Virus record (IMG/VR): IMGVR_UViG_3300031555_003626
Location: 160,001 to 224,000 of that record
Reading direction: 5' to 3' (one strand)
Length of the DNA stretch: 64,000 bases
From: a virus
Taxonomy: Duplodnaviria > Caudoviricetes
Below are positions 29,045 through 29,157 of this stretch, in pieces. The stretch's first letter is position 1, and each line of letters starts with the position of its first letter. The notes under the pieces were generated by a model. That model made no database searches and was not told the origin of the DNA. It worked only from the letters and a program-made list of their open reading frames with translations. Made by a program: the position numbers and the translations under genes.

Positions 29045-29157
29045 AGAGCCAATGCTTATTTCTTTGCCTGTTAAGCCGTGTGTCGCAGGTTCGAATCCTG
29101 CCATCCCGCTGCAGTGGGATGTAGCTCAGTGGTAGAGCAACGATTATTAGCTTGGCC
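29045..29157 (+). ncRNA. Y-RNA-like element 2 enclosing a circularly permuted tRNA-Asn(GUU)
   Basis: GCCAA-T-GCT/AGC-TTGGC stem; order is anticodon loop, T arm, acceptor hairpin (CATCCCG/TGGGATG), D arm. Confidence 0.85.

What the first reader, a model, noticed from the sequence alone, without database searches (positions are those of the whole stretch)
29045..29157. Complete circularly permuted tRNA-Asn(GUU) that retains its whole anticodon arm
Seen: the 3' part GC-CTGTTAA-GCCGT-GTGTC-GCAGG-TTCGAAT-CCTGC-CATCCCG precedes the 5' part TGGGATG-TA-GCTC-AGTGGTA-GAGC-A-ACG. Joining ACG to GC recreates an ACGGC/GCCGT stem with a canonical loop. YrlA-type mimics normally lack an anticodon, whereas permuted tRNA genes that mature through circles are known from algae and archaea. 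Inference: either a recently captured tRNA in a Y-like RNA, a decoy displaying a GUU loop, or a true permuted tRNA gene.
Basis: partly seen in the sequence, partly recalled or inferred. Interest (0 to 1): 0.8.

Follow-up and report, generated by a model that had tools for sequence, protein, structure and literature searches.

The report
Phage handle RNA displaying whole tRNA
A 113-base RNA gene of a 233-kb uncultured phage is a complete tRNA written in rearranged order, sealed at its amino-acid end and anchored on a conserved "handle" stem. It belongs to a large uncatalogued RNA family that keeps a perfect anticodon hairpin but swaps the anticodon, so it is most likely a bait for host proteins that read or cut tRNA anticodons, not a working tRNA gene.

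Summary
At 29045-29157 (+) the 3' part of a tRNA precedes its 5' part, and joining them gives a cloverleaf that ARAGORN calls tRNA-Asn(GUU).

It is not a chance or isolated case:
- It is one of seven copies in the window of a conserved bulged "handle" stem that flanks a 659-aa protein gene. That protein has a helical N-domain and a TerD-like C-domain, and no TROVE domain.
- All 13 related viral loci that carry the protein also carry handle RNAs beside it.
- Of 80 distinct permuted tRNA-like handle RNAs collected, 47 share U1's design. Two or three anticodon-stem pairs form with the distant 3' strand, a local hairpin supplies the remaining three or two, and the loop has 7 nt (U33 in 47/47, R37 in 47/47).
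- Near-identical bodies carry different anticodons (GUU, GCU, UGU, UUU, UCU).
- GCU sits on bodies with a short variable loop, which cannot serve as tRNA-Ser.
- U1's own clade has a capped acceptor stem and no CCA.
- The phage has a normal tRNA-Asn elsewhere.

My reading is a YrlA-like tRNA mimic that displays an anticodon arm, probably as a bait or decoy. A true permuted tRNA gene is unlikely, at about 8%. This scan had already noted the same handle family on other phage DNA.

The parts
29008..29037 (+). Promoter-like site (TTAAAA, 18 nt, TATAAT). It places the transcript start at about 29044-29046, just before the handle.
   Evidence: The same TATAATATAA box precedes units at 26808 and 29214.
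29045..29157 (+). U1: a handle RNA carrying a complete, circularly permuted tRNA-like module.
   Evidence: (YrlA 43 bits on 29077-29143, below the gathering score of 69).
29048..29063 (+). Handle 5' strand: 5 bp, a bulged U, 3 bp, then the invariant U-rich motif.
   Evidence: In one search, helix 1 is 100% paired, with 6 of 8 pairs changing on both sides. The units were selected for this pairing.
29066..29076 (+). Anticodon hairpin: a 2-bp stem and a 7-nt loop, with anticodon GUU at 29070-29072.
   Evidence: Family statistics are: U33 47/47, R37 47/47, A38 45/47.
29077..29079 (+). The upper three bases of the anticodon-stem 3' strand. They pair with 29140-29142 across the whole tRNA body.
   Evidence: In one search all three pairs of helix 3 change on both sides.
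29085..29101 (+). T arm.
29102..29121 (+). Acceptor stem sealed into a hairpin: 7 bp, plus G-1:C73, plus a 4-nt loop. There is no CCA.
   Evidence: Orthologues are capped by UUCG or by longer extensions.
29124..29138 (+). D arm.
29140..29142 (+). The lower-numbered part (27-29) of the anticodon-stem 5' strand. The handle leaves the stem after it.
29149..29156 (+). Handle 3' strand.
26964..28943 (+). A 659-aa protein gene framed by handle RNAs, the presumed protein partner. It has a helical-repeat N-domain and a TerD-like beta-sandwich at residues 427-588.
   Evidence: Synteny with handles holds in 13 of 13 loci.
26808..26861 (+). Handle unit U0: short cargo with no tRNA part, in the leader of the 659-aa gene.
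29214..29327 (+). Handle unit U2: a permuted tRNA-like module with a fully inter-strand 5-bp stem, and with A73-CCA followed by 2 nt in the acceptor loop.
29341..29450 (+). Handle unit U3: a permuted tRNA-like module without an anticodon hairpin. Its acceptor is closed by a 3-nt loop.
36448..36696 (+). Three further handle units (36448-36500, 36528-36626, 36642-36696) with non-tRNA cargo.
25786..26712 (+). Polynucleotide-kinase-type RNA end-healing enzyme, immediately upstream of the locus.
   Evidence: The RNA ligases Rnl1 and Rnl2 are encoded elsewhere in the phage.

Best explanation
U1 is a non-decoding tRNA mimic. Its own promoter gives a transcript of about 113 nt, and the two ends pair into a conserved bulged handle. 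This handle is shared by all seven units of the window and, by inference from strict synteny, is bound by the neighbouring 659-aa helical/TerD protein.

The handle leaves the anticodon stem between positions 29 and 30 of its 5' strand. The rest folds as a full L-shaped tRNA with an intact 5-bp anticodon stem, a 7-nt loop showing GUU, and an acceptor end sealed by a tetraloop.

The particle therefore holds out an authentic anticodon arm that cannot be charged or enter the ribosome. I think it acts as a bait or competitive substrate for host proteins that recognise anticodon arms, most likely the anticodon nucleases of anti-phage defence. The displayed anticodon would be re-targeted by point mutation.

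What is shown: the anatomy, the conservation, the covariation, the anticodon swapping and the gene linkage. What is inferred: protein binding, and the identity of the host target.
For: Anatomy and tRNA likeness.

Handle family:
- Seven copies in the window.
- About 55 units from one motif scan of viral contigs.
- All 13 loci encoding a relative of the 659-aa protein have handles flanking it.

Anticodon arm under selection:
- 47 distinct units have a 2+3 or 3+2 split stem that always totals 5 bp, with invariant U33, R37 in 47/47 and G37 coupled to G36.
- 96.6% of cells are paired against 77% in shuffles, and 18 of 26 pairs change on both sides.

Not a decoding tRNA:
- The same bodies carry different anticodons: L007 GCU, L016 GUU, L259 UGU; L028 UUU and L356 GUU; L262/L337 GCU against L305/L312/L318 UCU.
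- Five GCU units have a 5-nt variable loop, whereas bacterial SerRS needs the long arm (established knowledge).
- None of the nine GUU-clade units has N73-CCA, and their acceptors are capped.
- The phage has a separate canonical tRNA-Asn(GUU) at 34816-34891, only 68% identical to U1.

Display logic: short family members carry only a D-like hairpin plus an anticodon stem-loop, mostly UUU.

Conflict context: a Pnk-type kinase next door, plus Rnl1 and Rnl2 ligases. This is the toolkit phage T4 uses against the PrrC anticodon nuclease (T4 knowledge).
Against: - There are no expression, binding or cleavage data.
- The host is unknown.
- Many displayed anticodons (Pro UGG, Ile UAU, Val GAC) have no known dedicated nuclease.
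- 12 of 47 hairpin-type relatives, mostly UGG, encode N73-CCA after a 7-bp acceptor stem. This looks like more tRNA fidelity than a decoy needs.
- M. smegmatis YrlA is opened by RNase P and receives CCA in vivo (PMC4201824), so a sealed end is not an absolute bar.
- Units were collected with patterns and a parser that demand pairing, so the pairing percentages are partly by construction.
Confidence: 0.55

Rival explanations
1. Y-RNA-type tether or gate rather than a nuclease decoy. The tRNA module recruits a host tRNA-binding enzyme to the handle-binding protein, or regulates that protein. Candidate enzymes are an exoribonuclease as in the Ro60-Y RNA-PNPase machine, an aminoacyl-tRNA synthetase, or an anticodon-loop modification enzyme such as the t6A machinery.
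For: - The architecture parallels YrlA (PMC4201824) and phage Ro60 with its Y-like RNAs, which recruit host PNPase (PMC12135203).
- 32 of 47 loops keep U36 and 35 of 47 keep A37 (A38 in 45 of 47). U36-A37 is the context of tRNAs that receive t6A (established knowledge).
- Most displayed anticodons belong to tRNAs whose synthetases read the anticodon.
Against: - The partner is not a TROVE/vWA protein.
- Rapid anticodon swapping on constant bodies is easier to explain by an arms race than by recruitment of one conserved enzyme.
Confidence: 0.27
2. True circularly permuted tRNA gene. The handle is cut away, positions 29 and 30 are ligated with Pnk and Rnl, the circle is opened at the acceptor by RNase P and 3' trimming, CCA is added, and the product decodes Asn codons.
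For: - The permuted join is a perfect cloverleaf.
- The phage has end-healing and ligase enzymes.
- Its tRNA genes carry unusual inserts that also imply non-standard RNA cutting and joining (earlier scan notes).
- Some relatives encode N73-CCA, with tRNA-Pro-like C1-G72/A73.
Against: - U1 and its GUU clade have no CCA, and their acceptor helices are extended or UUCG-capped.
- Linkers at the junction vary from 1-7 nt and 3-9 nt, are A/U-rich, and have no conserved base or bulge-helix-bulge.
- The phage has no splicing endonuclease and no RtcB.
- Anticodon and body are uncoupled, and GCU sits on class-I bodies.
- A normal tRNA-Asn is present.
- The same handle carries cargo that can never be a tRNA.
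Confidence: 0.08
3. Decaying or rearranged tRNA pseudogene with no function.
For: None beyond the unusual gene order.
Against: - It has its own promoter.
- All tertiary bases are intact.
- There are 47 distinct relatives with compensatory changes.
- Synteny with one protein gene is strict.
Confidence: 0.02

Closest known systems
YrlA (Rfam RF02553), the tRNA-like Y RNAs bound by bacterial and phage Ro60/Rsr (Chen et al. 2014, PMC4201824)
   Same: Both are small RNAs whose ends form a protein-binding stem and whose middle is a permuted T arm, closed acceptor and D arm. Both are encoded next to the partner protein gene, occur in several copies with different cargo, and are present in phages.
   Different: - U1 scores 43 bits against a gathering score of 69, and only on the tRNA-like part.
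- The handle lacks the GNCGAAN(0-1)G motif.
- The partner has no TROVE or vWA domain.
- U1 keeps a complete anticodon arm, which YrlA replaces by the Ro-binding stem.
Deinococcus radiodurans Yrn1
   Same: Chen et al. model it with a possible 'anticodon arm' on a Y RNA.
   Different: That arm has a 6-nt loop, with no V arm and no full D arm. U1 has a canonical 7-nt loop and every tRNA element.
Circularly permuted tRNA genes of Cyanidioschyzon merolae and Thermofilum (Soma et al. 2007; Chan et al. 2011; cited from memory)
   Same: The 3' half lies upstream of the 5' half in one transcript, and the joined sequence is a perfect cloverleaf.
   Different: Those genes have a bulge-helix-bulge at the junction, a splicing endonuclease, and a spacer removed by RNase P/Z before CCA addition. 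U1 has a conserved handle instead, no endonuclease gene, a tetraloop-sealed acceptor, and relatives with swapped anticodons.
Phage T4 Pnkp/Rnl1 repair of PrrC-cleaved tRNA-Lys, and phage tRNAs that escape anticodon nucleases
   Same: The same conflict, host cutting of anticodon loops, is suggested by the Pnk, Rnl1 and Rnl2 genes and the large tRNA set of this phage.
   Different: Those are repair or replacement strategies. A displayed, non-decoding anticodon arm on a protein handle would be a third strategy, titration, that has not been shown experimentally.
Two-piece (permuted) tmRNA genes of alpha-proteobacteria and cyanobacteria (from memory)
   Same: A bacterial precedent for a permuted tRNA-like gene whose acceptor loop is processed.
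   Different: tmRNA lacks an anticodon arm and is charged with alanine. There is no sequence or model similarity at U1.

Membership tests
YrlA / Y RNA (Rfam RF02553) | Reaches the Rfam gathering score over the whole model. | tested here: not met
   43.0 bits against 69, model positions 23-86 only.
YrlA / Y RNA (Rfam RF02553) | GNCGAAN(0-1)G Ro60-binding motif near the 5' end (PMC4201824). | tested here: not met
   The motif is absent from 29045-29065. The handle has a different conserved bulged helix plus a U-rich motif.
YrlA / Y RNA (Rfam RF02553) | Encoded within a few kb of a Ro60 (TROVE + vWA) gene on the same strand. | tested here: not met
   - There is no TROVE match in any frame of the 233-kb phage.
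- The neighbouring 659-aa protein has no Pfam or PDB sequence match.
- Its C-domain is TerD-like: Z 13.7, rmsd 2.1 A, 145 residues aligned.
YrlA / Y RNA (Rfam RF02553) | The partner protein has the Ro60 HEAT-repeat ring fold. | tested here: inconclusive
   With the N-domain model, Ro60 (1yvp_A: Z 4.9, rmsd 7.4 A, 229 aligned) and Rsr (2nvo_A: Z 4.7, rmsd 6.7 A, 234 aligned) give the longest alignments. Both lie among generic helical-repeat hits at Z 4-6.
YrlA / Y RNA (Rfam RF02553) | Permuted T arm, closed acceptor stem and D arm between the two strands of a terminal stem. | tested here: met
Circularly permuted tRNA gene | The 3' half precedes the 5' half, and the joined halves form a canonical cloverleaf. 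| tested here: met
   ARAGORN calls it tRNA-Asn(gtt). The same holds for 47 of 47 relatives.
Circularly permuted tRNA gene | Bulge-helix-bulge or another conserved cleavage motif at the junction, and a matching endonuclease. | tested here: not met
   Junction linkers vary in length and sequence. The phage has no tRNA_int_endo domain and no RtcB.
Circularly permuted tRNA gene | A removable spacer between discriminator/CCA and position 1, allowing a free acceptor end. | tested here: not met
   U1 has G-1:C73 plus a 4-nt loop and no CCA. Orthologues carry UUCG caps or helix extensions. Some non-orthologous relatives, and U2, do have N73-CCA plus 1-8 nt.
Circularly permuted tRNA gene | Identity elements consistent with the anticodon. 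| tested here: not met
   The same bodies carry different anticodons, and GCU sits on short-variable-loop bodies. In U1, position 73 is C, whereas bacterial tRNA-Asn uses G73 (established knowledge).
Circularly permuted tRNA gene | A circular intermediate and a mature, aminoacylated product. | not testable with these tools
   Needs RNA from infected cells.
Phage handle-RNA family (uncatalogued; defined here by the handle) | 5 bp, a bulged pyrimidine, 3 bp, then the invariant U-rich motif, with the complementary 3' strand 45-130 nt downstream. | tested here: met
Phage handle-RNA family (uncatalogued; defined here by the handle) | Linked to a homologue of the 659-aa helical/TerD protein. | tested here: met
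   U1 starts 102 nt after the gene's stop codon. All 13 homologous loci have flanking handles.

The most novel reading that the evidence does not exclude
The handle RNAs with complete cloverleaves are genuine permuted, or two-piece, tRNA precursors of a phage. This applies above all to the CCA-encoding relatives and possibly to U1. RNase P would open the acceptor loop, and either the handle is cut out and the anticodon stem sealed by the phage Pnk/Rnl enzymes, or the two base-paired pieces are charged as they are. That would be the first permuted tRNA genes outside algae and archaea, and a new tRNA maturation route.
Probability: 0.08. Interest if true: 0.95.

Novelty: new variant of a known kind. 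Interest (0 to 1): 0.68.

Why it matters
Known tRNA-like Y RNAs stop short of the anticodon. Here a phage RNA family presents the whole tRNA, including an authentic anticodon arm whose triplet changes between close relatives, on a handle tied to an uncharacterised protein that is widespread (945 clusters at 50% identity).

If these RNAs titrate host anticodon nucleases or other anticodon readers, they would be a third phage answer to tRNA-targeting immunity, beside tRNA repair and replacement tRNAs. They would also be a natural, programmable scaffold for displaying RNA hairpins. The family is absent from Rfam and is easily mis-annotated as broken tRNA genes.

Tried and rejected
- **Ro60 identity of the partner.** The following were all negative:
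  - Pfam TROVE search in six frames.
  - phmmer and profile searches against PDB sequences.
  - Foldseek on the full model and on the N-domain model.
  - VIA-align gave only weak, long Ro60/Rsr alignments.
- **RtcB** and **splicing endonuclease** are absent from the phage.
- **Two adjacent tRNA genes** is rejected. The acceptor strands pair with each other across 6 nt, and upstream lies a promoter, not a 5' tRNA half.
- **Copy of the phage's own tRNA-Asn** is rejected: 68% identity. The closest canonical tRNAs among fetched loci were an unrelated tRNA-Asn at 85% and tRNA-Arg(UCU) genes at 82-84%.
- **RNAfold MFE** (-38.7 kcal/mol) prefers an alternative pairing to the cloverleaf-on-handle fold (-33.1), as is common for tRNAs, so this was not informative.
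- **A search of deposited phage genomes** found only short T/acceptor/D look-alikes.
- **The literature searches** found no description of this handle family or of permuted tRNA genes in phages.

Full report
**Observation.** The order along the strand is:
- a conserved 5' stem strand
- a 2-bp hairpin with a 7-nt loop showing GUU
- three more stem bases
- a 5-nt variable loop
- the T arm
- the acceptor 3' strand, a short closing loop, and the acceptor 5' strand
- U8-A9
- the D arm
- A26
- three bases that pair back to the stem bases after the hairpin
- the 3' strand of the terminal stem

Joining 29115-29142 to 29066-29108 gives a 72-nt sequence that ARAGORN calls tRNA-Asn(gtt). ARAGORN and the Rfam tRNA model do not see the unpermuted gene. 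Rfam's YrlA model matches only the T/acceptor/D part, at 43 bits against a gathering score of 69. No ORF of 60 aa or more overlaps the region. A promoter-like site ends at 29037, so the transcript should start at about 29045.

**Context.** The window lies in a complete 233-kb uncultured phage, inside a tRNA-rich region that also holds a GOLLD RNA. The terminal stem of U1 is a repeated "handle": 5 bp, a bulged pyrimidine, 3 bp, then an invariant U-rich motif, with the complementary strand downstream. Seven copies lie in the window, at 26808, 29048, 29214, 29341, 36448, 36528 and 36642. Their stems differ by compensatory changes. Four copies frame a 659-aa gene (26964-28943), one upstream and three downstream.

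**The neighbouring protein.**
- It has no Pfam or PDB sequence match.
- It has 945 relatives among 50%-identity cluster representatives.
- The AlphaFold model is confident, at pLDDT 93.
- Its C-terminal domain is TerD-like: Z 13.7, rmsd 2.1 A, 145 residues (Foldseek).
- Its N-terminal helical domain gives only generic repeat matches. Ro60 and Rsr produce the longest alignments, but these are weak: Z 4.9 and 4.7, 229 and 234 residues, rmsd about 7 A.
- The phage has no TROVE protein and no RtcB.
- All 13 viral loci that encode a relative of the protein carry handle units directly beside it.

The linkage of RNA to protein is therefore as strict as for Y RNAs and Ro60. The protein cannot be called Ro60.

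**The family.** Three DNA pattern scans of viral contigs and one of metagenome contigs gave about 100 distinct handle units. The cargo varies:
- short AU-rich inserts
- a D-like hairpin plus a tRNA-type anticodon stem-loop, mostly UUU
- unpermuted tRNA-like inserts
- permuted tRNA-like modules

I parsed 80 distinct permuted modules.
- In 17 of them, including U2 and U3 of this window, all five anticodon-stem pairs form between the two distant strands and there is no closed loop.
- In 47, including U1, two or three pairs are inter-strand and a local hairpin supplies the remaining three or two. The stem is always 5 bp and the loop always 7 nt.
- I saw no unit with an incomplete arm among the rest. 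The remaining 16 were not systematically classified; those I examined were parsing failures or stems with one mismatch.

All 47 permuted joins are accepted by ARAGORN. Loop positions follow tRNA rules:

| Position | Count |
|---|---|
| U33 | 47/47 |
| Purine 37 | 47/47 |
| A38 | 45/47 |
| G37 | 12/47, always with G36 |

On an alignment of 40 units, 96.6% of cells pair, against 77% in shuffles and 28-44% when partners are slid. Eighteen of 26 pairs change on both sides, including pairs of the hairpin and of the inter-strand helix. One caveat applies: units were found with patterns and a parser that demand pairing, so the handle and anticodon-stem percentages are partly by construction. The variety of compensatory pair types is not.

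**Is it a tRNA gene?** Five lines of evidence say no for U1.

1. The anticodon is uncoupled from the body. Near-identical bodies carry different anticodons:

| Body group | Anticodons |
|---|---|
| L007 / L016 / L259 | GCU / GUU / UGU |
| L028 / L356 | UUU / GUU |
| L262, L337 / L305, L312, L318 | GCU / UCU |

   Five GCU units have a 5-nt variable loop, which bacterial seryl-tRNA synthetase cannot use (established knowledge).
2. The nine units of the GUU clade, U1 included, never encode N73-CCA. Their acceptor helices are capped by a tetraloop, by UUCG, or by helix extensions. In U1 a G-C pair at -1:73 continues the helix.
3. The linkers between handle and tRNA body vary from 1-7 and 3-9 nt, are A/U-rich, and show no conserved base or bulge-helix-bulge. 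The phage has no splicing endonuclease.
4. The phage has a normal tRNA-Asn(GUU) at 34816-34891 that is only 68% identical to U1.
5. The same handle carries cargo that can never become a tRNA.

Points in favour of a tRNA-gene reading remain. Twelve of the 47 units, mostly UGG with tRNA-Pro-like C1-G72/A73, and U2 of this window, do encode N73-CCA followed by 1-8 nt. The phage encodes a Pnk-type kinase next to the locus plus Rnl1 and Rnl2 ligases. M. smegmatis YrlA is opened by RNase P and receives CCA in vivo (PMC4201824). I therefore keep about 8% for a true permuted or two-piece tRNA.

**Most likely mechanism.** U1 is a handle-anchored, sealed, full-length tRNA mimic. The handle exits the anticodon stem at 29/30, so the anticodon loop, the 3' strand of the stem and the whole L-shape remain exposed. 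A helix projecting from the anticodon stem and a closed acceptor end should exclude it from charging and from the ribosome (inference).

Rapid anticodon swapping on constant bodies, the existence of minimal units that show only an anticodon arm, and the neighbouring RNA-repair genes all point to conflict over tRNA anticodon loops. My best reading is a bait or competitive substrate for host anticodon nucleases, held or delivered by the 659-aa protein.

A Y-RNA-like tether that recruits another anticodon-reading enzyme (a synthetase, the t6A machinery, an exonuclease) is the main rival. It is favoured by the U36-A37-A38 context of most loops and by the phage Ro60 precedent (PMC12135203).

**Comparison with known systems.** U1 works like YrlA but fails its membership tests: the Rfam score, the Ro-binding motif and the TROVE partner. 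It differs in kind by keeping the anticodon arm. D. radiodurans Yrn1 has at most a 6-nt-loop look-alike. U1 looks like the permuted tRNA genes of red algae and archaea, but it lacks their junction motif, their enzyme and a free acceptor end.

The literature searches found no description of this handle family or of permuted tRNA genes in phages. Earlier notes of this scan had already met the same handle family, with anticodon-only and anticodon-less cargo, on other phage DNA and in this genome. My tests agree with them on the family. They add the complete-tRNA subclass with a split anticodon stem, its anticodon spectrum, and the TerD-like (not vWA) partner domain.

**Verdict.** U1 is a new variant of a known kind: a tRNA-mimicking, Y-RNA-like ribonucleoprotein RNA. 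It is interesting mainly as a member of a large, uncatalogued, testable phage system.

Noticed in passing
window 35494-36007, insert at 35547-35692: A GOLLD RNA (156 bits, above gathering) carries in its variable region a permuted tRNA-like insert. The insert has a T arm, an acceptor stem closed by a long loop, and a D arm. It gives a weak YrlA match of 27 bits.
   Followed up: partly
window 29214-29327 (U2) and relatives L032, L039, L284, L291: These handle units have no closed anticodon loop but carry A73-CCA plus 1-2 nt in the acceptor loop, C1-G72, and a conserved 7-nt stretch resembling the tRNA-Pro(UGG) loop just 5' of the stem. They look like permuted tRNA-Pro copies opened at position 31/32.
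   Followed up: partly
window 29586-29737, 30811-30944, 31447-31642, 31861-32020: Four tRNA genes match the Rfam tRNA model only with inserts in or beside the anticodon loop; the three shown in the alignments are 66-125 nt. At least three of the inserts (those read) contain a T-arm-like hairpin. Earlier scan notes read these inserts as tRNA-shaped introns.
   Followed up: no
window 32042-32152: Sub-threshold match to the RAGATH-33 RNA motif: 43.6 bits against a gathering score of 120, over the full model length.
   Followed up: no
L066:8941-9115 region (175-nt unit): A complete short handle unit is nested inside the acceptor loop of a larger permuted tRNA-like handle unit, directly after an encoded A73-CCA.
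   Followed up: no
L024 and L098 (102-nt unit); L044 (108-nt unit): The handle also carries unpermuted tRNA-like inserts joined through the acceptor stem. At least one has an abnormal anticodon loop.
   Followed up: no
window 29470-29570 and 30365-30460: Further tRNA-like fragments lie between the handle units and the tRNA genes: D-arm and T-arm look-alikes, with a partial Rfam tRNA hit at 29513-29567. ARAGORN does not call them.
   Followed up: no
slot immediately 3' of the 659-aa gene in L235-L247: The first RNA after the protein gene is in most of these loci an anticodon-displaying unit. Its form differs between phages: a full mimic with GUU here and with UUU in L238/L239/L242/L246, and a 58-59-nt D-plus-anticodon-arm unit with UUU in L235/L236/L237/L240.
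   Followed up: partly
G000:C1:131999-132607 and 143526-144023 (outside the window): The phage encodes both a T4 Rnl1-type and an Rnl2-type RNA ligase, in addition to the Pnk-type kinase at window 25786-26712.
   Followed up: partly
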